From contig JBGTFQ010000188.1 in assembly GCA_041747155.1 (NCBI GenBank), positions 1,090 through 65,089 on the forward strand: a stretch of DNA of 64,000 nucleotides. Reading direction: 5' to 3'. A model generated the notes under the pieces. That model searched no databases. It saw only the letters and a program-made list of their open reading frames with translations, and was not told the origin of the DNA. A program made the position numbers and the translations under genes. How positions within the stretch are numbered: position 1 is the first letter of the stretch; each line of letters starts with the position of its first letter. Below, one piece after another: positions 36,004 to 51,134 of this stretch. Origin of the DNA: Rubrobacteraceae bacterium. GTDB lineage: Bacteria; Actinomycetota; Rubrobacteria; Rubrobacterales; Rubrobacteraceae.

Positions 36004-37533
36004 GTGAGCCTCATATCTGATTTTACCAACAATGTGATAAAAGGCATTCGAGACAGCACCTACGAGTTTGCTACCGAGGACAGGCTCTCTGGAGCTGGGT
36101 TGAAGGGAGAGCAGGATCTCCACGGGGTTCTGGAGAAGTATGCTTGGCTCTACGAGCGTGGCGTCGTGCGGCGTATGCAGGAGGCCTATCGCTCAGAAGC
36201 CGATCTTCACCTCAAGGAGCGATTGCGTCGTGTCTACTATTATCTGCTCGATGGTTACCTGGAACGGCGGACCGCCGCGATGGAGGACGCTATCGCATCT
36301 TTCGAGATGGACGCAACAAGTGAGGTGGGGGAGGATCTGATTTCCTATCATGACATTCCGGCACTCATTACCGTAGAACCGGATTTCGAAAAACGCAACC
36401 GGCTGCGGGAAACTTTTCTGAGGATAGTAGAAAAGACGAATCCCGAAAGGTCTATCATCTTGCAAATCCGGTTGGAGATACTTCAAGTAGAGTTCGGCTA
36501 CACTAGTTACGCGGCCTACGTCAGCGAGAAGAAGTGCCTCGACCATCACCGCCTCCTTTCTCGATTGGAAAAACTTCTTCAACAAACGGAAGACATGTAC
36601 GAGGCCCATATGTGCCGGTGGGTGGAAGAGACAACGAATCGGAAGTTTGGTGAGATCGGGGATCATCATTTCTCCTATATGGCTGGCATTCACCGCTATG
36701 ACACCTACTTTGAGAGCAACAGGTTGATCGAAGTCTATAAGCGGACACTTGCCGACATGGGCCTGAACCGTTGGGCACAGGAAAACATACACCTGGATGC
36801 TGAAGAACGCCCCGCAAAAGATCCGCGACCTTGCTGCTACGTACCCGACCCACCGGGTGAGGTTCACCTGGTCATCAAGCCTGTCGGTGGCTTCGAGGAT
36901 TACGTCAATTTTTTCCACGAAGCCGGCCACGCCCAGCACTACGCCAACGAGGATTCTACCCTCGACTACGTCGACCGGGCCATGCCCACGAGCTATGCCC
37001 TGACCGAGGTGTACGCCTTCCTCATGCAGAACCTTACTCAGAACAAGGCTTGGTTGCGAAACATCGCTGGACTGCCTGAAGAGGCGGCCCGCAGGGTGAT
37101 TTACCATGCCAAGCTTACAGATTTATACTTTCTGCGACGTTACGTCGCAAAACTAAAATACGAGCTGGATTTCTATAAAGAGCCGGAAAATGAGGAGCGT
37201 AACCGAAGGCTCTACGCTATCTGCCTCTCCTCCGTGACAGGCTTTCTAAGCCCGCCGGAGAACTATCTCAGAGACATTGATAGCGACTTTTACTCCGCCG
37301 ATTATCTAAGGGCCTGGATCACAGAGGCGATGCTCCGTCGCCATCTCGAAGGCACGTTCGGTGAAGAATGGTTCGCCCGTTCGGAAGCAGGCGCTTTCTT
37401 GCTGGAGTTATGGTCCAAAGGGGAAAGCTTGGAGAATGAGGACGTCTCCCGAATGCTCGGATACGAGCCATTCGACACTACATGCCTCGCCGAACAATAC
37501 GTTGCCTTGGAATCGCTAGATAGCTCAATGTAG
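36004..37533 (+). CDS. M3-family (oligoendopeptidase F-like) zinc metallopeptidase
   Basis: 509 aa with HExxH in FFHEAGHAQHY. Lies in a visibly lower-G+C segment. GTG start. Confidence 0.6.
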   Translation: MSLISDFTNNVIKGIRDSTYEFATEDRLSGAGLKGEQDLHGVLEKYAWLYERGVVRRMQEAYRSEADLHLKERLRRVYYYLLDGYLERRTAAMEDAIASFEMDATSEVGEDLISYHDIPALITVEPDFEKRNRLRETFLRIVEKTNPERSIILQIRLEILQVEFGYTSYAAYVSEKKCLDHHRLLSRLEKLLQQTEDMYEAHMCRWVEETTNRKFGEIGDHHFSYMAGIHRYDTYFESNRLIEVYKRTLADMGLNRWAQENIHLDAEERPAKDPRPCCYVPDPPGEVHLVIKPVGGFEDYVNFFHEAGHAQHYANEDSTLDYVDRAMPTSYALTEVYAFLMQNLTQNKAWLRNIAGLPEEAARRVIYHAKLTDLYFLRRYVAKLKYELDFYKEPENEERNRRLYAICLSSVTGFLSPPENYLRDIDSDFYSADYLRAWITEAMLRRHLEGTFGEEWFARSEAGAFLLELWSKGESLENEDVSRMLGYEPFDTTCLAEQYVALESLDSSM

Positions 37534-37545
37534 ACTACTGCTGTA

Positions 37546-38805
37546 TCAGGCTGGTTTGCGCGCGCTGGGTATTAGGAAAGCCAATGATCCCAGAAGGACC
37601 AGCAGACCGCCGGTAACGGCCCACATCGGCTGTACTCCGAATCGCTCCGCCGCGACGCCCACGAGCGCGTTGGAAGTGAGGCCGGCTACGCAGAAGAGCA
37701 TGGTGCGGAGGCTGGAGACCCGTCCGAGAAACTCGTTAGGAGTCAACTGCTGTGTGAGGGTAATGCTCGGTATGACGAAAAGCATGTTGCCCAAGCCACC
37801 GAGCGCCATCATCCCGGCTGCAAGCCACAGGTCCGAGAACAGCGCGAGAGAGGCGTCGGCAATGCCCGAGACTATGAGTCCGACCAGTATCATCGGCCCC
37901 CTGGGGCAGAGATCTCCCCACTTGCCCACTGCCAGCCCGCCGGCGACGGCGCCGAGACCCAGTGCCGCTTCGAGTACGGAATAATGGAAGGCGCCCCCGC
38001 CGGTAACCTCGGTGGCGTAACCATAGGTAAGCGTGTAAGAACCCCAAAAGATGAGTATGGCTACCGTGGCGATCACGGTATTGACGAGCAGTGCCGAGTT
38101 CGAACCCACGAAGCGCAACCCGACGAGAATCCGCTGTCCGATGCCATCGAAAGCGGTCTCGGAGGTAGAAGGGGCCGCCCGTGTCACGGACATCGTGTAG
38201 ATCATCACCGCCGAGAAACCGTAGGTAGCGGCGTCTATCCAGAAGGCGAGCTCGATGCCATTTCCACCCTCTAGCACACCCCACAACCCAGCGACCAGTA
38301 CCCCGGCCAGCGGGTAGCCGAGCACGTCAACCGTGGTCTCTGTGGTGGAAGAGAGCGAGTTAGCCTTCGTCAGGCTCTCCTTCGGCACCACGTTTGGTAT
38401 CGTCGCGTCCTTGGCTGGCTTGAAGAACAGGCCCGCAGTCTGCAGCAGAAACGCGGCTACGTACACTAACAGGAGGTCCACCTGCGCCAAGAACGGTATC
38501 GACAGCACCAGAGGAACTCGGATGAGGTCCGCCGCGAGCATCACCCGGCGCCGGTCCCAGCGGTCCACCAACGCCCCGGCGAATAGCCCGAATAGCAGCG
38601 ACGGTGTCCCCAGTGTGACAAACATCAGCGCCACCCGCCCCAAATCGCCCGAGGTTAGCGCACCGACCAAGACCAACAGGGCGACCTGGTGCAGCCGGTC
38701 GCCGAAGACCGAGATGAGCTGACCCAGCCAAAGCGCCGCGAAATTGCGGTTCATACGGAGCAAAGCGGCGTATGAAGTGCTCTGCCGTATCGTGGTGGCG
38801 GTCAT
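37546..38805 (-). CDS. MFS transporter of the DHA3 (Mef / EntS-like) type
   Basis: About 12 TM. The N-terminal pattern NRNFAALWLGQLISVFGD...GALVDRWDRRRVMLAADLIR matches the Mef(A)/EntS-type signature, from memory. GGAG lies 9 nt before ATG 38805. Confidence 0.8.
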   Translation of the reverse strand: MTATTIRQSTSYAALLRMNRNFAALWLGQLISVFGDRLHQVALLVLVGALTSGDLGRVALMFVTLGTPSLLFGLFAGALVDRWDRRRVMLAADLIRVPLVLSIPFLAQVDLLLVYVAAFLLQTAGLFFKPAKDATIPNVVPKESLTKANSLSSTTETTVDVLGYPLAGVLVAGLWGVLEGGNGIELAFWIDAATYGFSAVMIYTMSVTRAAPSTSETAFDGIGQRILVGLRFVGSNSALLVNTVIATVAILIFWGSYTLTYGYATEVTGGGAFHYSVLEAALGLGAVAGGLAVGKWGDLCPRGPMILVGLIVSGIADASLALFSDLWLAAGMMALGGLGNMLFVIPSITLTQQLTPNEFLGRVSSLRTMLFCVAGLTSNALVGVAAERFGVQPMWAVTGGLLVLLGSLAFLIPSARKPA

Positions 38806-38874
38806 ACAGATCAACTCCTGTCGGTATTAGAATGTTTGCGGAGCTTTCAATTGCTTGTTCTCTTGTGCAGTAGA

Positions 38875-38902
38875 GTGGCGGAGGCTCCAGAGCCCCCGCC
38901 AC
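38875..38902 (-). promoter_or_regulatory. GC-rich hairpin between the last mini-ORF and the MFS gene
   Basis: Minus sense is GTGGCGGGGGC-TCTGGA-GCCTCCGCCAC (about 11 bp including one G-U). No U-tract follows. Confidence 0.45.
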
Positions 38903-38920
38903 GATCTTCGTCTCTCAGAT

Positions 38921-38953
38921 TTACGGGCTGTATTTTCCTTTGCGTCCCTTCAT
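38921..38953 (-). CDS. mini-ORF 1, MKGRKGKYSP (candidate leader peptide)
   Basis: AGGAGGT lies 7 nt upstream. Sequence is ATG AAG GGA CGC AAA GGA AAA TAC AGC CCG TAA. Confidence 0.5.
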   Translation of the reverse strand: MKGRKGKYSP

Positions 38954-39002
38954 CTTTGTTACCTCCTTTCCTGCTCGTCTTTCCGAATCTGCTGTCCTGT
39001 CT

Positions 39003-39035
39003 TTACGGTGTATAGCGGCCCTTGCGTCCCTTCAT
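39003..39035 (-). CDS. mini-ORF 2, MKGRKGRYTP (candidate leader peptide)
   Basis: AGGAGGT lies 7 nt upstream. 10 codons ending CCG TAA. Confidence 0.5.
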   Translation of the reverse strand: MKGRKGRYTP

Positions 39036-39082
39036 GGTCTATACCTCCTCTCTTCCTTCTTGTCGGTCTTCGTCTCTCAGAT

Positions 39083-39115
39083 TTACGGGCCCCTCAGTCC
39101 CTTGCGCCTCTTCAT
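39083..39115 (-). CDS. mini-ORF 3, MKRRKGLRGP (candidate leader peptide)
   Basis: AGGAGGT lies 7 nt upstream. 10 codons ending CCG TAA. It is followed by the same ATCTGAGAGACGAAGA sequence as mini-ORF 1. Confidence 0.5.
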   Translation of the reverse strand: MKRRKGLRGP

Positions 39116-39174
39116 CTTTGCCACCTCCTTTCGTAATCTCGGTTGTTTTCGCTTCTGCGTTGGTCTCCTGGTTG

Positions 39175-39207
39175 TTACGGGCCCCTCCGGCCGCTGCGCT
39201 TTCTCAT
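39175..39207 (-). CDS. mini-ORF 4, MRKRSGRRGP (candidate leader peptide)
   Basis: AGGAGGT lies 5 nt upstream of the second of two tandem ATGs. 10 codons ending CCG TAA. Confidence 0.45.
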   Translation of the reverse strand: MRKRSGRRGP

Positions 39208-39434
39208 CATCCACCTCCTCCGTCCATCGCTGCCCTGTGCAACTTCTAAAACCAATGTAACCTCCCAAAAGGCTCTGTACATCGGCCATGCGGCTATTTG
39301 TTGGTTGGCCGGGTGGCTATTGTTTGCCTCCAACCATTAGCGGGGTTTTGGAAAGGAACTCCCGTACCACTATGCCGGATCTGCTAGGATTGGGTGATTC
39401 AGACGCAGCAGCTGACAGGAGCACAGGAGCGACG

Positions 39435-42197
39435 ATGGATCTGCCCACCGGCACCATCACATTCTTGTTCACAGATATAGAAGGCTCTACTAAGCTGTGG
39501 GAGCGCAGCGCAACCGCCATGCAGCGCGCCCTGACCCGACATGACGAGATCCTGACGGAAGCCATCGAAGCCAACGACGGCCACATCTTCAAGAAGGTAG
39601 GCGACGCCTTCTGCGCGGCATTCTCCTCTGCTCCTGCGGCACTTGAGGCGGTGCTCACCACCCAGCGTGCCCTTTGTGGCGAACCGTGGGAGGAGGGGTG
39701 TGAGATCCGGGTGAGGATAGCCTTGCATACCGGGTCTGTCGAAGAGCGCGGTGGAGACTACTACGGTCCGCCGCTAAACCGGGTCGCTAGGCTGATGTCC
39801 GCCGGACATGGGGGGCAAGTCTTGCTCTCGCTAGCCACCCAGGAGCTAGTAAGGGATGGACTGCCACCGGGTGTCGAGTTAAGGGACCTTGGAGAGAGAC
39901 GCCTGAAAGACCTCTTCCGCCCCGAGCAGGTATTCCAGGTGTCAGCCCCAGAGCTGCCATCGAGCTTCCCGCCCTTGAGGACCCTCGATGCTCGCCGCAA
40001 CAACCTGCCCATACAGCCAACGCCGCTGGTTGGTCGCGAGCGAGAGGTGGCAGAGGTCTGCGAACGTATGCGGCAGGAGGAAGTGCATCTTTTGACCCTT
40101 ACAGGACCGGGAGGGACAGGTAAGACACGCCTCGGACTTCAGGCTGCGGCCGACCTAGCAGTGGAGGACTTCGAGGGTGGCGCCTTCTTCGTACCCCTCG
40201 CCGCCATTACGGATGCGGACTTATTCTTCGGCGAGGTGGCCGGGGCGCTCGGCATCCGGGAAAGCGGCGACACCCCGCTCCCTACTCTGCTCAAGGAGTA
40301 CCTGGGCCGTAGGGAGCTGTTGCTAATCCTGGATAACTTCGAGCAGCTCTTGGGAGCCGCGCCGCTCGTGAGCGAAATACTTGCCGCCGCGCCGCAGGTA
40401 AAGGTTTTGGTTACGAGCCGCGTATCGCTCGGCCTCTACGGCGAGCACGAGTACGCTGTACCGTCCCTCTCGGTGCCGGACCCCAGGCACCTACCGCTCG
40501 TCGAGACCCTCTCCCAGTACGAGGCCGTGCGGCTTTTCATAGAGCGTGCCGGGGCGGCGAAGGCCGATTTCGCAATCACCAATGAGAATGCCCCGGCTAT
40601 CGCCGAGATCTGCGCCCGCCTGGATGGCCTGCCCCTCGCCATAGAGTTGGCCGCCGCCCGTGTGAAGCTTCTCCCCCCGAAAGCCCTGCTAAACCGCCTG
40701 GGCAACCGTCTCAAGCTCCTGACCGGCGGAGCAAAGAACCTCCCGGCGAGGCAGCGCACCCTGCGGGGTGCCATTGAGTGGAGCCACGAATTGCTGACCC
40801 AGGGAGAGAAGACCCTCTTTGCCAGGCTCGCCGTCTTCTCCGGCGGGCGCACCTTCGAAGCGATAGAGGCCGTCTGCGACGCCGAGGGGGACCTGCCCGT
40901 AGATTCCTTCGACGGCGTCTCCTCGCTGCTGGACAAGAGCCTTCTGCGCCGCGAAGAAGGACCGCAAGACGAGCCACGCTTCGCGATGCTGGAGACCATC
41001 CACGAGTTCGCCCGCGAGAAGCTCGAAGAGAGCGGGGAGGCTGAGGAGATAAAACGACTGCACGCAGAGTACTTCCTCTCGTTCGCAGAGGAGGCCGAGC
41101 CGGAGCTTGAAGGGCCGGCGCAGGTGGAGTGGATGCATAAGCTGGAGGCCGAGCACAGTAACCTTCGGGCGGCGCTCTCATGGGCACATGAGACGGCTAA
41201 TGCGGAGTTAGGGTTACGCCTCGGAGGCACCCTGTGGTGGTTCTGGTCCATTCGAGGCTACGCCGTCGAAGGGCGACGCTGGTTGGCAGAAGGAATGTCT
41301 AGGAGCCAGGCGGTACCCGCCAACATCAGGGCCAAGGCGTTGCTGGGTTTAGGAGAGTTGGTATTGATGCAGGGCGAGTGCGAACCGGCTACGGAGTCGT
41401 TAGAACGAAGCTTGTTACTGTACCGCGAGGTCGAAGACAAGAGGGGAGAGGCTTACGCTCTCTTCTTTCTAGGGTGGGTGGCTACGCTTCGCGGCAGTCT
41501 CGACCGGGCGAACGAATTGTTTGAGCAGAGCGTTGCGCTGAGTCGGGAAAACGGAACCAAAAGAGACATTGGCTTCATGCTAAACGGACTCGCCAGCTCA
41601 ATAATGGCTTGCGGGGATTATACGCACGCGACCACCGTATACGAGGAGAGCCTGACTGTATCTCGGGAAGCCGGGGACATGCAAGGCATCTCGGCCATCA
41701 CCGGCAACCTTGGGTACCTATTGGTCTGCACCGGTGAGCACGAGAAAGCGGAGCTGCTCCTTCGGGAAAGTCTGAAGATGGCGCAAAGTCTAGGAGACAC
41801 TCATTCCATTGCGACCTGCCTCGGGCTCCTCGGGATGGTGGCTCTAAATGGAAACGACACTGGGACAGCCAGGAGGCTGGCTGAAGAGAGTTTGATGGTG
41901 AACCGTGAGGTGGGAAATAGGTTAATAATCATCGATAACCTAGAGCTCTTGGCAGGTGTTGCCGGCCTAAAGGAAGAGGCCGTGCGAGCAGCGCGGCTTT
42001 GGGGGGCATCTGAGACGTTGCGAGAGGCCGCGGGCACGCCGGTGCTTGACGGCGAGTGGACTCTGCGCGAGGAGTTCATCATCCCCTCTCGCAGGCAGTT
42101 GGACGAAGCGTTGTTCGAAGAGGCGTTCGCGGAGGGCTGCGACATGGCGCTGGAGGACGCAGTCGCCTATGCCCTGAACGAGAAAACCGATGTCTAA
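39435..42197 (+). CDS. class III adenylate/guanylate cyclase fused to a STAND (NB-ARC-like) ATPase and TPR repeats
   Basis: FLFTDIEGST, FKKVGDAF and YYGPPLNRVARL motifs. Walker A GPGGTGKTRLGL. C-terminal TPR-like repeats (YALFFLGWVA..., GISAITGNLGYL...). ATG 39435 is chosen by GGAG spacing and by the paralogue N-terminus. The ORF is open from 39288. Confidence 0.85.
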   Translation: MDLPTGTITFLFTDIEGSTKLWERSATAMQRALTRHDEILTEAIEANDGHIFKKVGDAFCAAFSSAPAALEAVLTTQRALCGEPWEEGCEIRVRIALHTGSVEERGGDYYGPPLNRVARLMSAGHGGQVLLSLATQELVRDGLPPGVELRDLGERRLKDLFRPEQVFQVSAPELPSSFPPLRTLDARRNNLPIQPTPLVGREREVAEVCERMRQEEVHLLTLTGPGGTGKTRLGLQAAADLAVEDFEGGAFFVPLAAITDADLFFGEVAGALGIRESGDTPLPTLLKEYLGRRELLLILDNFEQLLGAAPLVSEILAAAPQVKVLVTSRVSLGLYGEHEYAVPSLSVPDPRHLPLVETLSQYEAVRLFIERAGAAKADFAITNENAPAIAEICARLDGLPLAIELAAARVKLLPPKALLNRLGNRLKLLTGGAKNLPARQRTLRGAIEWSHELLTQGEKTLFARLAVFSGGRTFEAIEAVCDAEGDLPVDSFDGVSSLLDKSLLRREEGPQDEPRFAMLETIHEFAREKLEESGEAEEIKRLHAEYFLSFAEEAEPELEGPAQVEWMHKLEAEHSNLRAALSWAHETANAELGLRLGGTLWWFWSIRGYAVEGRRWLAEGMSRSQAVPANIRAKALLGLGELVLMQGECEPATESLERSLLLYREVEDKRGEAYALFFLGWVATLRGSLDRANELFEQSVALSRENGTKRDIGFMLNGLASSIMACGDYTHATTVYEESLTVSREAGDMQGISAITGNLGYLLVCTGEHEKAELLLRESLKMAQSLGDTHSIATCLGLLGMVALNGNDTGTARRLAEESLMVNREVGNRLIIIDNLELLAGVAGLKEEAVRAARLWGASETLREAAGTPVLDGEWTLREEFIIPSRRQLDEALFEEAFAEGCDMALEDAVAYALNEKTDV

Positions 42198-42717: not shown

Positions 42718-43425
42718 CTATTGAGCTTCGGCAGAGAGCAGGCCAAGTTCAGTGGCGCGGACCGCCGCCTGAGTTCGGTCGGAGACACCGAACTTGGCGA
42801 TTATGTGTTGAACGTGGGCCTTCACGGTACCGACGCTAACCAGGAGGTTCCTGGCTATCATGGGGTTCGTTTGACCTTCCGCCATGAGGCGCACCACTTC
42901 TACCTCCCGGTTCGTGAGCGGCTCGACCGGAGGGTCTGGAAGCCTGCGCGCCGGCTGCGAAGAGCTGGCTGTCTGCTCCTTCTCACTCGCTAGGTGGCGG
43001 AGCAGGCGCATTGCTAGATCCTGGTCCAGGGTGGACTCCCCCGATAGCACCCGCCGCACAGCGCTCACCAACTCCTCCCTTGAGGAGCCCTTGAGTACAT
43101 AACCGGCGGCGCCAGCTTTGACCGCCTCGAAGAGATATTCGGGGTCCTCGTGCATAGTCACCATTACGATGCTGGTGCGAGGATGCTCTCTCTTAATAAT
43201 CTGGGTAGCCGCGAGCCCGTCCAACTCCGGCATCCTTACATCCATCAGGATCAGATCCGGTCCGAAGCGCCGACACAGGTCGATGGCTTCCTGACCGTTC
43301 GCCGCCTCGCCCACAACCTCAAGATCTACCTCGTCGGCGAGCATTCCACGAATGCCCTCCCGGACCAAAGCGTGGTCGTCAGCGAGGATCAATCGGGCCG
43401 CACGAGACTGGGATTTACCGTCCAT
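42718..43425 (-). CDS. NarL/LuxR-family response regulator
   Basis: REC (LILADDH, DLILMDVRMPELDG) plus LuxR HTH (LTNREVEVVRLMAEGQTNPMIARNLLVSVGTVKAHV). The start is uncertain (43425 or 43443). Confidence 0.85.
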   Translation of the reverse strand: MDGKSQSRAARLILADDHALVREGIRGMLADEVDLEVVGEAANGQEAIDLCRRFGPDLILMDVRMPELDGLAATQIIKREHPRTSIVMVTMHEDPEYLFEAVKAGAAGYVLKGSSREELVSAVRRVLSGESTLDQDLAMRLLRHLASEKEQTASSSQPARRLPDPPVEPLTNREVEVVRLMAEGQTNPMIARNLLVSVGTVKAHVQHIIAKFGVSDRTQAAVRATELGLLSAEAQ

Positions 43426-44488
43426 CGTCTTCCTTTGCTCCATCGATTGGGACCTGCGCGACCACCAAAGTGCCTACGCTCGGCTTGCTAAGAACCTCCA
43501 GCTTGCCTCCGATCAAGGCGACCCGCTCTCGCATCCCGTAAAGACCGACCCGCTCACCCCAAGCGCCACCACCCACAACATTGCTTGTCTCAAAGCCGCT
43601 GCCCCAGTCCCTGATCCGGAGCCGTACAGCCCCATTCAGCCGCGAGAGCTTGATCCTTGCCCGGTACGTACCCGCATGCTTACGCACATTGGTCAGCGCT
43701 TCCTGCGCCACCCGGAAGAGCGCCGTCTCCACCTCAGCCGGAAGCCGCTCCTTACCGAGAGCCTCACAATACCTCACGTTCCAGCCTTCCTTCCGAAGCG
43801 CCTCGACCTGCATGGCAGTCGCGGCCGCTAGACCGAAGTCGTCGAGCGCTGTTGGCCGCAAGCGCCCTATGACCTGGCGTGACTCCACAACCACCCCCTG
43901 AACCAACTCCAACACCCGGCGAAGCTCTTGGCTATCAGGGTTCCTGGCTGCGTAGGTCTCCAAAAGACTGTGAGCGGCGACCGCAGTCTGGGCTAGACCG
44001 TCATGTACCTCGTAAGATACGCGGCGACGCTCCTCTTCTTGTGCGGCCAGCATTCGTCCGATCAAGTCTCGCGGCGGGCGGTCACCGGCCCCGAGCTGCG
44101 ATACAAGGGTCATCGTATCCCAGTTGGTCCACTGCTCCACGATCTTACTATCTGCGATACGAAAGATTGAGATCCCCGTCGTTGACATTTTCCTGCCGGT
44201 AGGAACTATGCCTAAAAACTCGCCTCGATGAGTACCGTGGTCCGTCCAGCGCACCACGACCCTGTCGCCTACCGAGATCTCATCCTGGATAGAAACGTGT
44301 AGGTCGGGGAAGGCGTCAATAAAGCTCGCCAGGCTCTGCTTAAAGCTTTCGAGTCCGCTTTTCTCCCAAACGGCTCTGTCGTGGCCGACTAGATCTTCGG
44401 CAAGGAAGTCATTCGCTGCTTCCAGGTTGCGCCGATTCATGACTTCTTCGTAAAAACGGCGGACTATGATTCTATTCTCCTCGGACAC
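43415..44488 (-). CDS. cytoplasmic histidine kinase with N-terminal SnoaL-like (NTF2-fold) domain
   Basis: N-terminal RRFYEEVMNRRNLEAANDFLAEDLVGHD...GDRVVVRWT (SnoaL/ester-cyclase-like). HisKA_3 H-box EERRRVSYEVHDGLAQ. HATPase_c motifs follow. No TM segment. Confidence 0.8.
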   Translation of the reverse strand: MSEENRIIVRRFYEEVMNRRNLEAANDFLAEDLVGHDRAVWEKSGLESFKQSLASFIDAFPDLHVSIQDEISVGDRVVVRWTDHGTHRGEFLGIVPTGRKMSTTGISIFRIADSKIVEQWTNWDTMTLVSQLGAGDRPPRDLIGRMLAAQEEERRRVSYEVHDGLAQTAVAAHSLLETYAARNPDSQELRRVLELVQGVVVESRQVIGRLRPTALDDFGLAAATAMQVEALRKEGWNVRYCEALGKERLPAEVETALFRVAQEALTNVRKHAGTYRARIKLSRLNGAVRLRIRDWGSGFETSNVVGGGAWGERVGLYGMRERVALIGGKLEVLSKPSVGTLVVAQVPIDGAKEDDGR

Positions 44489-47998: not shown

Positions 47999-50902
47999 TT
48001 AGCGCAAGATAGCCAGGTTCGCCTGGCGACGGGCCTCTACGACGCTCTCAAAGGCGTCGCGCAGGTCGGGGACGGTCCGCAGGAGGCTGAGGAATTGTTC
48101 GCGGTCGAGCCTCAACAAGATGCTGGGGGCGCGCGCCCGGACGGTTGCCGCACGCGGCACGTCATCCAGCAGCGCCATCTCCCCGAAGTAGTCTCCATCG
48201 CGGAGCATTGCGAGTCGCCGTTCTTCCCCAGTCGGACCAATGGTCACCACCTCCACCTCTCCGCGTGCGACTATATACAGGTTTTCGCCAGGATCTCCCT
48301 CTTCGAAGATCGTTTCGCCTTCCGTGTAACGCTCGGTAAGGAAATGATCCGCGAGTGCTGCCAGCAAAACCCCGTCCAGATTCTTGAAGAACGGTACGCC
48401 TTGCAGGCGCGTAGCTTCAAGGCCAACATATTGTTCGTTTGCGCCGATCACGAAGCCATGTTGCTGCTCCCACAAGCGATGATAGAGGCCCCTCATGCCC
48501 AGCAGTTCCTCATGGGTGCCCTGCTCGACCAGGCGGCCGTGTTCGAGCACGGCGATGAGATCATACCCGACCACGGAAGAGAGCCGGTGGGTAACGGTTA
48601 TAGTAGTGCGTTGCTGGGAAATTTTCGCTAGAGTGGAGTTGATGGCGGCCTCGGTCTGCGGATCCAGCGCGGAAGTAGGCTCGTCGAGGACGAGTATAGC
48701 CGGATCTCTCAGGATTGCCCGCGCCAGGGCGATGCGCTGACGCTGACCACCAGAGAGGCGGCCGCCGCGCTCCCCAACCACCGTCTCGTATCCTTGGGGC
48801 AACCCCACAATGAAGTCGTGGATCTCCGCTGACCGCGCCGCCTCTTCCACCTCATGATCCGTGGCGGAAAGCTTTCCCAAACGGATATTCTCTCGCACCG
48901 TGTCATTGAAGAGGAACGTATCCTGGAAGACCGCGCCGATCTGTTCCCGCAGCGACTCCTGCGAGATCTGCTTTAGGTCCTGGCCGTCCAATCTCACCGA
49001 ACCGTTTGTAGGATCGTAGAATCTCATGAGAAGGTTCAGGAGCGTGCTCTTTCCGGAGCCGCTGGGGCCAACGAAGGCTACGGATCGCCCGGCCGGGATC
49101 GTGATGCTTACCCCTTGCAGGTTTGTCTGCTCGCCAGTGTAACTGAAGTCGACCTCATCGAGGCTTATCTCCTCCGAGAGCCGCGGCGCTGGTTTCGCAT
49201 CTGTCTCGTCGGTAATTTCGGGCTGCTCCTCTAACAGTTCATTCACCCGCTGCATCCCGCCAGAGGCCTCCTGCAGCATCTGCACGATCCCGGATATTGA
49301 GCTGAGTGGCCCCGTCACGTTGCCGAGTAGTCCCTGGAAAGCGAACAGCGACCCGATAGTGAGATTCCCGCGTATAACCATAAATGCCCCAACGGCAAGT
49401 GCCACCACCTGGACAAAGGAAACGCTGAGACCCGCCGTCGTCCCCATCAAGGAACCGAGAAAGGCGCTTCGCAGGGTGCTTTGCCGGAGTCGTTCGATCT
49501 CTTCGCGAAAGCCCCCTATCGCCATCTCCTGCAGACCAAAGGCCTTGACGATAGGCTGGGCGCCGACATTCTCCTGGGCGACGCTTGCCACTCTTCCCGC
49601 GTCCTCTTGCTGTTCGTAACTCGCCCTGGCGGCCCGCCCTCCGAACAGAGCTGGTCCCAGAAACAGTATAGGCAGCACCAGCGTACACAGCAACGCCAAG
49701 CGCCACTCAAGGACGAATAGTATGACGGCACTGATACCGAAGCTGAGAACGAGGGTAGTTAGGGCGGGGATCACGCCCGTCAATGCTCCCGCGACCACCA
49801 TCAAGTCGTCGGTCATTCGGGACATCAGGTCCCCAACCCGGGAGCGGGTATAGAAACTCAAAGAGAGCCGCTGAAGATGGCCGAACATCTTTAGGCGCAG
49901 ATCGTTCAGCACGTTGGCGCTTACACGGGCGGATAGATAATCTTCGCCCAGGCTGACTACAGACTGGAAGATGAAGAAGCCGACCAACGCCCCCAGGATC
50001 AGGACGAGTAGACTGACGTTTCCCGGGCGTAAGGCATCGTCTATGAGGAATTTAGTGCTCAAAGGCAAGATTATCCCGAAGGCGGCGCCGACCAAAGAGC
50101 CTAAGATAATGAGCAGCTCCTGGGTCCAGTAGGGCCGCAGGTAAGAAAAAGAGAGCCGCAAGACACCCATCATCCCGATTACTGGAGCCCGGCGAGCCTT
50201 CAAAGCGGAGAGCCACTCCCGTCCCAGAGCGTGGACCGGCTTTCCATAAGCCGCCTCCGCCACGGGGTCTGGCGCTTCGGCGTCGAACTCCTGGACGAAC
50301 TGCTTGAATCGATCCGGACCGTAGACTTCGAGCAAGAAGGCGACGAACGAGGTGGCGACCTGATAGTAAAGTACTCCTATTGAGGCTGCGGGGCCTCGCA
50401 GCACTTCAGCCAGAAGAGGACGGCCGCCGCTCTGAGCTTCGACCAGGGCGGCGTCGAGCCTGACCGGTTCGATCTCAGTGCTCCTCTGTACGACGTACCC
50501 TAGAAGCCCATCCACGAGCGCTGTCGCCCCGGAGATCTCGACACTCACCGAAGAGGCCAACACCATCTCTACGACGGAGCGCTCCAAATCTTCCCCTGGA
50601 GCATCTGACGTATAGACAGCGTGGATGCGTCCAACCGCGTTGTCCAAGGTCCAACCGCTTCGCCTCTGGTCCGAAAGTTGCTCCTCGCTCGGCACGTCGC
50701 TCAGATAAACTGGGGTCTGAGCGTTAGGCGTATCTCGGAGCGCAAGAGCGTCAAAGACAGCGCTCCGAGTTGTCTCCAGCCGAGAGGCGATCTGCGACGC
50801 ATCTCTTTCGGCAGCAGATTCGGTTAAGAACCGTAGAACGAAGTTTGGCGAATGATGTTCGAGCCACTGTGGGAGTGGTTGATTGTCAGGGATTTGGCTC
50901 AT
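47999..50902 (-). CDS. ABC exporter (TMD-NBD) with an unknown ~240-aa N-terminal domain and a C-terminal cyclic-nucleotide-binding domain
   Basis: Walker A GPSGSGKST, signature LSGGQRQRIALARA, Walker B ILVLDEPTSALD. C-terminal cNMP domain with GDYFGEMALL...RAATV. The N-terminal domain has no Cys, so it is not a C39 peptidase. Confidence 0.85.
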   Translation of the reverse strand: MSQIPDNQPLPQWLEHHSPNFVLRFLTESAAERDASQIASRLETTRSAVFDALALRDTPNAQTPVYLSDVPSEEQLSDQRRSGWTLDNAVGRIHAVYTSDAPGEDLERSVVEMVLASSVSVEISGATALVDGLLGYVVQRSTEIEPVRLDAALVEAQSGGRPLLAEVLRGPAASIGVLYYQVATSFVAFLLEVYGPDRFKQFVQEFDAEAPDPVAEAAYGKPVHALGREWLSALKARRAPVIGMMGVLRLSFSYLRPYWTQELLIILGSLVGAAFGIILPLSTKFLIDDALRPGNVSLLVLILGALVGFFIFQSVVSLGEDYLSARVSANVLNDLRLKMFGHLQRLSLSFYTRSRVGDLMSRMTDDLMVVAGALTGVIPALTTLVLSFGISAVILFVLEWRLALLCTLVLPILFLGPALFGGRAARASYEQQEDAGRVASVAQENVGAQPIVKAFGLQEMAIGGFREEIERLRQSTLRSAFLGSLMGTTAGLSVSFVQVVALAVGAFMVIRGNLTIGSLFAFQGLLGNVTGPLSSISGIVQMLQEASGGMQRVNELLEEQPEITDETDAKPAPRLSEEISLDEVDFSYTGEQTNLQGVSITIPAGRSVAFVGPSGSGKSTLLNLLMRFYDPTNGSVRLDGQDLKQISQESLREQIGAVFQDTFLFNDTVRENIRLGKLSATDHEVEEAARSAEIHDFIVGLPQGYETVVGERGGRLSGGQRQRIALARAILRDPAILVLDEPTSALDPQTEAAINSTLAKISQQRTTITVTHRLSSVVGYDLIAVLEHGRLVEQGTHEELLGMRGLYHRLWEQQHGFVIGANEQYVGLEATRLQGVPFFKNLDGVLLAALADHFLTERYTEGETIFEEGDPGENLYIVARGEVEVVTIGPTGEERRLAMLRDGDYFGEMALLDDVPRAATVRARAPSILLRLDREQFLSLLRTVPDLRDAFESVVEARRQANLAILR

Positions 50903-51089
50903 GCCTTCGCTTCCGCACGATACTGGAGGAACAACAATAACTTAGCAGCAAACTGTGAAACTAGCCGCAATATGCCTCCCGGCTTTTTATGATCAGCCGC
51001 CTGCAAAACTGGTTCGACAAGCCTTGTACGTTAGTAGGGCCGACCGTATATTCAATTCCTTATGTTCGACTTCGCTACGCAGAGTTGAT

Positions 51090-51121
51090 GAGAGGCGGAC
51101 CTTGCGCAAGGTCCGCCTCTC
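51090..51121 (-). terminator. strong hairpin 14 nt downstream of precursor-like gene 1
   Basis: Perfect 12-bp stem GAGAGGCGGACC / GGTCCGCCTCTC with loop TTGCGCAA. The U-tract is weak. Confidence 0.5.
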
Positions 51122-51134
51122 ATCTTTGGACTAT

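What the first reader, a model, noticed from the sequence alone, without database searches (positions are those of the whole stretch)
38875..39230. Four tandem 10-codon basic mini-ORFs upstream of a Mef/EntS-like MFS pump
On the minus strand, in the 630-bp gap upstream of the MFS gene, a unit recurs four times at spacings of 80-92 nt. Each unit has AGGAGGT, 5-7 nt, ATG, nine further codons, then CCG TAA. The peptides are MKGRKGKYSP, MKGRKGRYTP, MKRRKGLRGP and MRKRSGRRGP.
- The SD, its spacing, the ORF length, the basic composition and the Pro-stop ending are conserved, while the inter-ORF DNA diverges. That pattern argues for selection on translation.
- Every peptide contains [K/R]-x-[K/R] motifs. 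This is the context known to arrest macrolide-bound ribosomes in erm/mef-type leaders.
- Pro immediately before a stop codon is a known slow-termination context.
- An 11-bp GC hairpin (38875-38902) lies between the last mini-ORF and the pump gene.

Together this looks like a multi-copy translational-attenuation leader, or a family of tiny basic peptides. I do not know of a described equivalent.
Basis: partly seen in the sequence, partly recalled or inferred. Interest (0 to 1): 0.75.

Follow-up and report, generated by a model that had tools for sequence, protein, structure and literature searches.

The report
Tandem leader mini-ORFs before efflux pump
Four copies of a ten-codon, ribosome-loaded mini-gene followed by a strong RNA hairpin sit in front of a Mef-like drug-efflux pump gene of an uncultured Chloroflexota bacterium; relatives keep the same arrangement in one to four copies, so it is most likely a translated regulatory leader of the pump, an unusual multi-copy version of a known kind of switch.

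Summary
Four units (GGAGGT, 5-7 nt, ATG, 9 more codons, CCG TAA) lie on the minus strand at 38921-39218. None is expected by chance, and a 13-bp GC hairpin follows at 38875-38902.

Related metagenomic loci show that the units are selected as ORFs. Orthologous pumps (59-84% identical) carry the same architecture in 1, 3 or 4 copies. Between the window and L002 the unit DNA is only 58-73% identical. Yet start, SD, 10-codon length and stop are kept in every unit, along with K/R2, R4 and G6 (Pro10 in 7 of 8).

More distant orthologues have other 10-11-codon leaders (MNREQNGRNWP, MGRELNRIKRK, MKVRRRLRGW) before a terminator-like hairpin. Remote paralogues have none.

Best reading: translated cis-regulatory leader ORFs that sense ribosome state. 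A tunnel-binding antibiotic is plausible, since all units start with the minimal macrolide-arrest form M-(K/R)-x-R.

The switch itself is not shown:
- no antiterminator or SD-masking helix is conserved;
- the hairpin lacks a U-tract;
- the hairpin is too far from the stop codon to be covered by a terminating ribosome.

The inducer is unknown. I rate it a new multi-copy variant of leader-peptide control, of moderate interest.

The parts
39175..39224 (-). Unit 1: SD (GGAGGAGGT) plus 10-codon ORF 39207-39175 (MRKRSGRRGP, CCG TAA). An extra in-frame ATG lies at 39210. This unit has no counterpart in L002.
39083..39131 (-). Unit 2: SD (AAAGGAGGT) plus 10-codon ORF 39115-39083 (MKRRKGLRGP). Orthologous to L002 unit a (MKGRAGRRTP).
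39003..39051 (-). Unit 3: SD (GAGAGGAGGT) plus 10-codon ORF 39035-39003 (MKGRKGRYTP). Orthologous to L002 unit b and to the single unit of L005.
38921..38969 (-). Unit 4: SD (GAAAGGAGGT) plus 10-codon ORF 38953-38921 (MKGRKGKYSP). Orthologous to L002 unit c (MRLRQGRWSG).
38903..38920 (-). 18-nt purine-rich spacer (AUCUGAGAGACGAAGAUC) between the last stop codon and the hairpin. The same 27-nt stop-plus-flank sequence follows unit 2, which marks a two-unit duplication.
   Evidence: family D3
38875..38902 (-). GC-rich hairpin GUGGCGGGGGCUC-UG-GAGCCUCCGCCAC (about -24 kcal/mol), followed by UCUACUGCAC with no U-run. It is conserved in L002, L005, L013 and L101, with compensatory changes at its base. 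It may be a terminator, attenuator or RNA-stability element.
38806..38874 (-). 69-nt A/C-rich, weakly structured spacer that holds the pump's SD (AGGAG, 38815-38819).
37546..38805 (-). DHA3-family MFS efflux transporter, 419 aa (MFS_3/MFS_1; TIGR00900 205 bits, below its cut-off; Mef(A) and EntS models far below their cut-offs).
39284..39326 (+). Two direct repeats (GGCCATGCGGCTATTTGTTG / GGCCGGGTGGCTATTGTTTG) upstream of the array. They are conserved in L002 and L005 as ..GCCACCCGACCGAC..GCCGCCCGACCGAT... They are a candidate operator or promoter region for the leader-pump transcript.
   Evidence: (D4)

Best explanation
The four units are translated leader ORFs (uORFs) in the 5' leader of the pump mRNA.

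Shown:
- Each unit has a strong SD, a correctly spaced start and exactly 10 codons.
- These features, with K/R2, R4 and G6 (Pro10 in 7 of 8 units), have been kept by selection while the rest of the unit DNA drifted.
- The arrangement (leader ORF or ORFs, then a strong hairpin, then 70-95 nt, then the pump SD) recurs upstream of orthologous pumps in copy numbers of 1, 3 and 4.

Inferred:
- Ribosomes translating the units report on the state of translation. The most likely signal is a drug bound in the exit tunnel or the peptidyl-transferase centre. It would stall ribosomes at the N-terminal M-(K/R)-x-R (+X+) site and/or at the slow Pro-stop.
- Stalled ribosomes would raise pump expression. The routes are read-through of the leaky, U-tract-poor hairpin terminator, protection or stabilisation of the purine-rich leader mRNA, or both.
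- Tandem amplification would multiply the number of sensing or protecting ribosomes per transcript.
- An activator-type promoter with conserved direct repeats, possibly served by the neighbouring STAND/LuxR-type regulator, probably adds a second layer of control.
For: - Four exact units against zero expected.
- Orthologous loci carry the same kind of leader: L002 has 3 units and the same hairpin; L005, L006 and L007 have 1 unit and the hairpin; L008 has MKVRRRLRGW and a hairpin with a U-rich tail; L013 and L101 have MNREQNGRNWP / MNRERNAKRLP and the hairpin; L014 has MGRELNRIKRK and a hairpin followed by TTCTGTTCGT.
- Units are orthologous one to one between the window and L002. They are only 58-73% identical, yet all keep start, frame, length and stop. 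A neutral simulation gives a joint probability of about 0.001-0.008.
- pN/pS is 0.63 in frame against 0.98 and 1.29 out of frame. Gly6 uses GGA, GGC and GGG. Position 7 is K or R in 7 of 8 units through six different codons (Leu in window unit 2). Stop codons swap between TAA and TAG. An Arg codon changes CGG to AGA between L013 and L101.
- The leader is 74% purine and unstructured (z = +0.38), as expected for a ribosome-accessible RNA.
- The hairpin is the only conserved structure, with compensatory changes at its base.
- 80 more distant DHA3 paralogues lack such leaders, so the element is specific to this pump lineage.
- Literature precedents: the mef(E) leader MTASMRLR with a terminator (PMC4335068); MRLR, MRLK and MRCK as minimal +X+ arrest sites (PMC12583479); MsrDL stalling at its stop codon to block a terminator (PMC10314930).
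Against: - No antiterminator, and no helix that masks the pump SD or start, is conserved. The best competing duplexes are far weaker than the hairpin.
- The hairpin starts 16-18 nt after the stop codon (29-34 nt in other lineages). That is beyond the roughly 10 nt a terminating ribosome covers, so the MsrDL-type steric mechanism does not fit.
- There is no U-run after the hairpin in the window, L002, L005, L013 or L101.
- Only the last unit is next to the hairpin, so a structural switch would not explain why units 1-3 are kept.
- L013's leader has no +X+ motif, and two 57-58% orthologues (L009, L012) and the L004/L215 lineage lack the mini-ORF.
- The pump's substrate is unknown.
- No expression data exist, and the transcript boundaries are inferred.
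Confidence: 0.55

Rival explanations
1. Constitutive mRNA stabiliser or ribosome-loading leader. The repeated perfect SDs (GAAAGGAGG, as in the Bacillus STAB-SD element, recalled from my own knowledge) with short ORFs keep ribosomes parked on the 5' leader. The hairpin caps a processed end. Together they stabilise the pump mRNA without sensing anything.
For: - Strong SDs recur in a purine-rich, U-poor (8% T), unstructured leader.
- ORF sequence drifts as fast as the spacers, while SD, start and stop are kept.
- No RNA switch was found.
- Copy number varies from 1 to 4.
- mef(E)L also affects mRNA stability (PMC4335068).
Against: - Specific residues (K/R2, R4, G6, P10) and the exact 10-codon length are conserved, which simple ribosome parking does not require.
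- Unrelated-looking leaders in other lineages still keep 10-11 codons.
Confidence: 0.2
2. The array is a separate small transcript, ending at the hairpin, that makes free 10-residue cationic peptides with a function of their own. They might, for example, be handled by the neighbouring pump or act on the ribosome or on nucleic acids.
For: - Peptide-level conservation and multi-copy gene dosage.
- The hairpin lies directly after the last ORF.
- No structural link to the pump start was found.
Against: - Ten residues with only four or five constrained positions.
- Peptide sequence changes completely between pump sub-lineages (MKGRKG.., MNRE.N.., MGRELN..), while position and length stay the same.
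- No modifying enzymes are encoded nearby.
- Always in cis and in the same orientation, immediately upstream of the pump.
Confidence: 0.1
3. Amino-acid-supply attenuator. Arg/Lys-rich leaders sense charged tRNA-Arg and tRNA-Lys, like the his, leu or polycysteine leaders, and couple pump expression to the supply of basic amino acids.
For: - 4-5 of the 9 residues after Met are Arg or Lys in every window unit.
- Every orthologous leader has at least two Arg residues.
- Precedent: polycysteine sORFs (bioRxiv 10.1101/834739, listed; abstract only).
Against: - Arg is encoded by five different codons and is not in runs.
- The downstream gene is an efflux-type DHA3 transporter, not a biosynthetic or uptake gene.
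- No terminator/antiterminator pair was found.
- L013's leader has only 2 Arg residues in 11.
Confidence: 0.07
4. Non-coding purine-rich repeat, such as protein-binding sites or a sponge RNA with repeated GGA/AGGAGG motifs. On this reading the ORFs are incidental.
For: - GGA-rich, 74% purine repeats.
- Tandem duplication history (family D3).
Against: - No Rfam family matches, even at E up to 10.
- The repeats have no hairpins.
- Start, frame, length and stop are kept in every orthologous unit despite about 35% divergence (P about 0.001).
- Synonymous-type substitutions are seen.
Confidence: 0.05

Closest known systems
mef(E)/mel leader Mef(E)L (MTASMRLR) with Rho-independent terminator (PMC4335068)
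   Same: - A short SD-led ORF lies in the 5' leader of a DHA3/Mef-type efflux gene.
- It contains a +X+ (R-L-R) site.
- A stable hairpin lies between the leader and the pump.
- It also contributes to mRNA stability.
   Different: - A single 8-codon leader, with no sequence homology to the units here.
- A canonical U-tract terminator and defined attenuator and anti-attenuator helices.
- Here there are four homologous 10-codon ORFs, no U-tract and no anti-attenuator.
- The pump here scores far below the Mef(A) cut-off.
ErmDL / minimal MRLR +X+ arrest peptides (PMC12583479)
   Same: All nine MK-class units begin M-(K/R)-x-R, the same form as MRLR, MRLK and MRCK. L002 unit c is literally MRLR.
   Different: - ErmDL controls a methyltransferase by unmasking its SD.
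- No such helix is found here.
- Arrest has not been tested for K-G-R or R-K-R contexts.
- Upstream and middle residues are known to modulate or abolish arrest.
MsrDL (MYLIFM-stop) termination-stall attenuator (PMC10314930)
   Same: - A very short leader whose stop-codon event could be the sensing step. Pro-stop is a slow termination context (my own knowledge).
- A hairpin lies downstream of the leader.
- It sits in a macrolide-efflux operon.
   Different: [quoted passage not shown]
- Here the hairpin begins 16-18 nt past the stop codon, out of reach.
- The peptide here is basic, not hydrophobic.
erm(A)-type leaders with two leader peptides
   Same: More than one leader ORF lies upstream of a resistance gene. 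PMC4335068 states 'one or two small leader peptides'.
   Different: - In erm(A) the two peptides differ from each other and each takes part in a helix cascade.
- Here four paralogous copies arose by tandem duplication, and no helices were found.
Macrolide-resistance mini-gene peptides ('bottle-brush' E-peptides; PMC2928234 discussion)
   Same: - Strong-SD mini-ORFs.
- Per PMC2928234, oleandomycin-resistance peptides are positively charged.
- They act in cis on the translating ribosome.
   Different: - Those peptides must be 4-6 residues long (PMC2928234).
- The peptides here are 10 residues long.
- No natural operon use of such mini-genes is known to me.

Membership tests
Ribosome-mediated leader-peptide attenuators of resistance genes (erm, mef, msr, cat, cmlA type) | A short ORF with its own SD in the 5' leader, in the same orientation and immediately upstream of the regulated gene | tested here: met
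   Four SD-led 10-codon ORFs lie 115-400 nt upstream of the pump ATG. The same arrangement is found in orthologous loci.
Ribosome-mediated leader-peptide attenuators of resistance genes (erm, mef, msr, cat, cmlA type) | The leader ORF is conserved as an ORF, with selection on translation or on particular residues | tested here: met
   Start, length and stop are kept at about 35% divergence (P about 0.001). pN/pS is 0.63 in frame against about 1 or more out of frame.
Ribosome-mediated leader-peptide attenuators of resistance genes (erm, mef, msr, cat, cmlA type) | Mutually exclusive RNA structures (attenuator and anti-attenuator), or a terminator within reach of the stalled ribosome | tested here: not met
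   Only the hairpin is conserved. No competing helix was found. The gap from stop codon to hairpin is 16-34 nt.
Ribosome-mediated leader-peptide attenuators of resistance genes (erm, mef, msr, cat, cmlA type) | An intrinsic terminator (GC stem plus U-tract) or a masked SD downstream of the leader | tested here: inconclusive
   The GC stem is strong, but the tail is UCUACUGCAC and the terminator scan was negative. U-richer tails occur in L008 and L014. Pairing that would mask the pump SD is weak and not conserved.
Ribosome-mediated leader-peptide attenuators of resistance genes (erm, mef, msr, cat, cmlA type) | Drug-dependent ribosome stalling and induction of the downstream gene | not testable with these tools
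   This needs toeprinting, Ribo-seq or reporter assays. Only the +X+ motif form could be checked: it is present in 4 of 4 window units and absent in L013.
Mef(A)/Mef(E) macrolide efflux proteins | The protein scores above the curated NCBIfam cut-off for Mef(A) | tested here: not met
   73.9 bits against a cut-off of 675. The best model is the DHA3 subfamily TIGR00900, at 205 bits against 319.6.
Amino-acid-responsive leader attenuators (his, leu, trp, polycysteine) | Clustered regulatory codons together with a downstream operon for that amino acid | tested here: not met
   Arg and Lys codons are dispersed and heterogeneous. The downstream gene is an efflux-type MFS transporter.
Known structured RNA families (Rfam), including riboswitches upstream of transporters and Csr/Rsm sponge RNAs | A match to a covariance model | tested here: not met
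   No hit at gathering thresholds in the whole window. Only chance-level hits at E up to 10 in 38700-39500.
RiPP precursor arrays | Precursors with leader and core regions (typically more than 20 aa) next to modifying enzymes | tested here: not met
   The peptides are 10 aa long. The neighbours are an MFS transporter, a STAND regulator and a protein with an HExxH motif but no Pfam match.
Macrolide-resistance 'bottle-brush' mini-gene peptides | Peptide length of 4-6 residues (PMC2928234) | tested here: not met
   All units encode 10 residues.

The most novel reading that the evidence does not exclude
The array is a multi-copy ribosome-stall platform that works without any RNA switch. Each unit would trap, or clear the drug from, one ribosome when a tunnel-binding compound is present. 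The number of occupied units would then set pump output in a graded or cooperative way. This could work through mRNA protection, through read-through of a weak terminator, or by handing drug-free ribosomes in cis to the pump ORF. Copy number (1-4 in nature) would be the evolutionary tuning knob.
Probability: 0.15. Interest if true: 0.75.

Novelty: new variant of a known kind. Interest (0 to 1): 0.5.

Why it matters
Leader-peptide sensors are the main way bacteria switch on resistance to ribosome-targeting drugs, but almost all studied cases come from Firmicutes, Actinobacteria and E. coli and use one or two leaders tied to an RNA switch.

This case differs in three ways:
- It comes from uncultured Chloroflexota.
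- The leader has been amplified to four independently maintained copies.
- No RNA switch is detectable.

If the element is functional, it would point to a control mechanism based on ribosome dosage or mRNA stability. It would also supply a set of natural minimal M-(K/R)-x-R ... Pro-stop peptides for testing the context rules of drug-dependent arrest.

It also shows that such elements can be recognised from sequence alone by ORF-structure conservation across metagenomic orthologues.

Tried and rejected
- **Rfam.** Searches of the whole window and of the leader found nothing.
- **Tandem Repeats Finder.** It misses the array because the units are too diverged.
- **Promoter and terminator consensus scans.** No sigma-70 promoter was found, and the hairpin is not called as a terminator.
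- **Metagenome scan with the hairpin sequence GGCGGRGGCT-N3-5-AGCCTCCGCC.** The hairpin sequence is generic, with more than 120 unrelated hits.
- **Genome-collection scan with a pump alignment.** The source genome was not recovered.
- **Viral contig scan for the unit.** No hits.
- **Antiterminator, SD-masking and long-range helices.**
  - RNAalifold proposed a pairing between the leader SD and codons 2-5 of the pump. It has an internal mismatch.
  - A duplex fold separately paired the hairpin's 5' arm with the pump start. That reflects the shared CCGCCAC of the hairpin arm and the conserved M-T-A-T codons, which are also present in lineages without the hairpin.
  - I rejected both as evidence.
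- **Antisense 106-aa ORF (38940-39260, + strand).** I treated it as an artefact of a stop-poor pyrimidine strand and did not search it.
- **Hairpin census of the window, to learn what terminators look like in this genome.** Too noisy in a GC-rich genome to be decisive.
- **Cluster look-up for the organism name.** No name is on record.

Full report
**1. What is there**

On the minus strand of the 629-nt divergent intergenic region, four units of the same build follow one another. The region lies between a DHA3-type MFS gene (37546-38805, ATG at 38805) and a cyclase-AAA-TPR STAND-type gene (39435-42197, + strand). Each unit has AGGAGGT, then 5-7 nt, then ATG, nine further codons, and CCG TAA.

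A pattern search finds exactly these four units (38921-38966, 39003-39048, 39083-39128, 39175-39218). It finds none elsewhere in the 64 kb and none in 100 shuffles. Start-to-start spacings are 82, 80 and 92 nt.

The peptides are MKGRKGKYSP, MKGRKGRYTP, MKRRKGLRGP and MRKRSGRRGP.

Eighteen nt after the last stop codon lies a hairpin, 38875-38902. Its arms are 13 nt with one G.U pair, at about -24 kcal/mol. Its tail is UCUACUGCAC, not a U-run, and the consensus terminator scan does not call it. Another 69 nt leads to the pump's AGGAG SD and ATG.

The array is 74% purine with 8% T. It has no more structure than shuffled sequence (z = +0.38). No Rfam family matches.

The pump matches MFS_3/MFS_1 and the DHA3 subfamily model. 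It is far below the Mef(A), EntS and Tap cut-offs. 'Mef/EntS-like' is correct only at the family level.

**2. Comparative evidence**

The pump belongs to uncultured Chloroflexota. I fetched DNA around its orthologues. The table lists what lies upstream of each.

| Locus | Pump identity | Upstream leader | Hairpin |
|---|---|---|---|
| L002 | 82% | three units: MKGRAGRRTP, (GTG)MKGRKGRRTP, MRLRQGRWSG | same hairpin |
| L005, L006, L007 | 84% (pump frameshifted) | one unit: MKGRKGKRTP | same hairpin |
| L013 | 72% | one 11-codon leader: MNREQNGRNWP-stop | longer version of the same hairpin |
| L101 | pump orthologue (identity not computed) | one 11-codon leader: MNRERNAKRLP-stop | longer version of the same hairpin |
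| L008 | 61% | MKVRRRLRGW | hairpin with UUUGUAUUG tail |
| L014 | 59% | (GTG)MGRELNRIKRK | hairpin with UUCUGUUCGU tail |
| L004, L215 | 69-71% | a 42-56-aa upstream ORF instead | none |
| L009, L012 | 57-58% | nothing comparable | none |

Eighty more distant DHA3 paralogues (48% identity or less) from Chloroflexota genomes have no such leader. The element is therefore a lineage-specific, cis-linked feature of this pump, and its copy number ranges from 1 to 4.

**3. Are the units translated and selected?**

A three-way alignment shows one-to-one orthology: window unit 2 = L002 a, unit 3 = L002 b = L005, and unit 4 = L002 c. Unit 1 is extra in the window.

Between the window and L002 the ORFs are only 64%, 73% and 58% identical. 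That is no better than the spacers (60-67%), and the spacers also contain indels. Even so, every unit keeps a start codon (ATG or GTG), the 10-codon length, a stop codon (TAA or TAG) and the SD. Under substitution-only drift at 25-35% divergence, the joint chance of this for three units is 0.008-0.001.

Within the ORFs, pN/pS is 0.63 in frame against 0.98 and 1.29 in the other two frames. Several positions show coding-type substitution:
- Gly6 is kept through GGA, GGC and GGG.
- Position 7 is K or R in 7 of 8 units, through AAA, AAG, CGC, CGG, AGA and AGG (Leu, CTG, in window unit 2).
- Thr9 uses ACA, ACG and ACT.
- Between L013 and L101 an Arg codon changes from CGG to AGA.

Conserved positions are Met1, K/R2, Arg4 and Gly6 in all eight units, Pro10 in 7 of 8, and a stop codon (TAA or TAG).

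This is the signature of short regulatory ORFs. The act of translation and a few residues are selected, and the rest is free to change. The non-coding repeat reading is therefore unlikely.

**4. How it may work**

The architecture is that of ribosome-mediated attenuators: promoter region, SD-led mini-ORF or ORFs, GC hairpin, spacer, then the SD of a resistance-type gene.

The literature gives three close precedents:
- mef(E)L (MTASMRLR) with a terminator upstream of mef(E)/mel (PMC4335068).
- +X+ arrest, whose minimal functional forms are MRLR, MRLK and MRCK (PMC12583479).
- MsrDL, where a drug-stalled ribosome at the stop codon covers half of a terminator (PMC10314930).

All nine MK-class units start M-(K/R)-x-R, and one is literally MRLR. 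Pro-stop is a slow-termination context (my own knowledge).

I therefore favour translated sensor leaders that respond to a ribosome-targeting compound. Three tests of the switch failed:
- RNAalifold and duplex searches find no conserved antiterminator or SD-masking helix. The only conserved structure is the hairpin, which shows compensatory changes at its base.
- The hairpin starts 16-18 nt past the stop codon (29-34 nt in other lineages), beyond the roughly 10 nt a terminating ribosome covers.
- The tail is U-poor in the closest loci.

A structural switch would also not explain why units 1-3, which are far from the hairpin, are maintained. The coupling step is therefore inferred. The options I consider most likely are protection or stabilisation of the leader mRNA by stalled ribosomes, and read-through of a weak terminator. 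Both are reported for erm and mef leaders.

The inducer is unknown. The +X+ argument is weakened in two ways. Such motifs are nearly unavoidable in peptides that are about 45% K/R. L013's leader has none.

**5. Rivals**

| Rival | Confidence | Main point |
|---|---|---|
| Constitutive stabiliser or ribosome-loading leader | 0.2 | explains the fast drift and the missing switch, but not the conserved residues and length |
| Free cationic decapeptides from a separate transcript | 0.1 | |
| Arg/Lys-supply attenuator | 0.07 | codons are heterogeneous and the target is an efflux gene |
| Non-coding purine repeat | 0.05 | contradicted by the ORF conservation |

**6. Comparison and novelty**

The element works most like the mef, erm and msr leader peptides. 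It is not a sequence homologue of any of them, and it fails the structural criterion of that class. The pump is not a Mef by the curated cut-off.

Two leader peptides occur in some erm genes. I found no report of four paralogous tandem leaders in the literature searches.

I class it as a new variant of a known kind. Interest is moderate (0.5). A specialist would find the multi-copy, switch-less design and its Chloroflexota origin noteworthy. The general principle is established and nothing here is functionally demonstrated.

**7. Limits**

- All orthologues are metagenomic fragments.
- Sample sizes are small and the units are not independent.
- Transcript ends, translation and induction are all untested.

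Noticed in passing
window 39284-39326 (also L002 about 545-585, L005 about 1905-1945): Two direct repeats about 23 nt apart lie upstream of the mini-ORF array. They are conserved in the two closest orthologous loci as GCCACCCGACCGAC ... GCCGCCCGACCGAT, and look like an operator for an activator. L004, L013 and L215 carry a different repeat pair (GTTACGCGTTTRAC ... GTTACGCRCTTGAT) at the equivalent place.
   Followed up: partly
window 39435-42197 (+); L004 4116-6269; L012 1-1328: A large adenylate-cyclase/AAA/TPR/HTH (STAND, LuxR-type) regulator gene accompanies the pump in several lineages, in different orientations. In L002 and L005 the upstream gene ends in a LuxR-type HTH. It is possibly the transcriptional regulator of the pump.
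   Followed up: partly
window 36004-37533 (+): A 509-aa protein lies convergent to the pump, 12 nt from its stop codon. It has no Pfam match but contains an HEAGH (HExxH) metalloprotease-like motif. A protein of similar size (475-509 aa) is a conserved neighbour in L001, L005-L007 and L008.
   Followed up: no
L005 2163-3421, L006, L007: In three independent contigs the orthologous pump is split into 123-aa and 306-aa overlapping ORFs (a frameshift), and only one mini-ORF unit remains. This may be a decaying locus, or a recurrent assembly or sequencing error.
   Followed up: no
L004 2294-2422; L215 113-283: In the 69-71% pump lineage, the mini-ORF and hairpin are replaced by a 42-56-aa upstream ORF (ME.RTLE.VANADG..LEVLE...) with a good SD. 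In L004 a remnant (ATGCGGACACGCAAGGCCCCGTAA) looks like a decayed mini-ORF. In L215 that remnant has lost both start and stop.
   Followed up: partly
window 51087-51124: A perfect 38-nt palindrome, GATGAGAGGCGGACCTTGCGCAAGGTCCGCCTCTCATC (about -34 kcal/mol), is the strongest hairpin in the window. It lies near the start of the 967-aa minus-strand gene (47999-50902).
   Followed up: no
window 38940-39260 (+): A 106-aa ORF runs antisense to the array. It is very likely an artefact of the stop-poor pyrimidine-rich strand. A 138-aa antisense ORF called directly upstream of the P0005 pump (contig without DNA) hints at another long array there.
   Followed up: no
window 42718-44488 (-): A two-component pair lies next to the STAND gene: a LuxR-type response regulator and a histidine kinase with an N-terminal SnoaL-like polyketide-cyclase domain. 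That is an unusual sensor domain.
   Followed up: no
L008 1066-1095: A second SD-led mini-ORF, non-basic (MEQLVFAEG, 9 aa), lies about 200 nt upstream of the basic leader MKVRRRLRGW.
   Followed up: no
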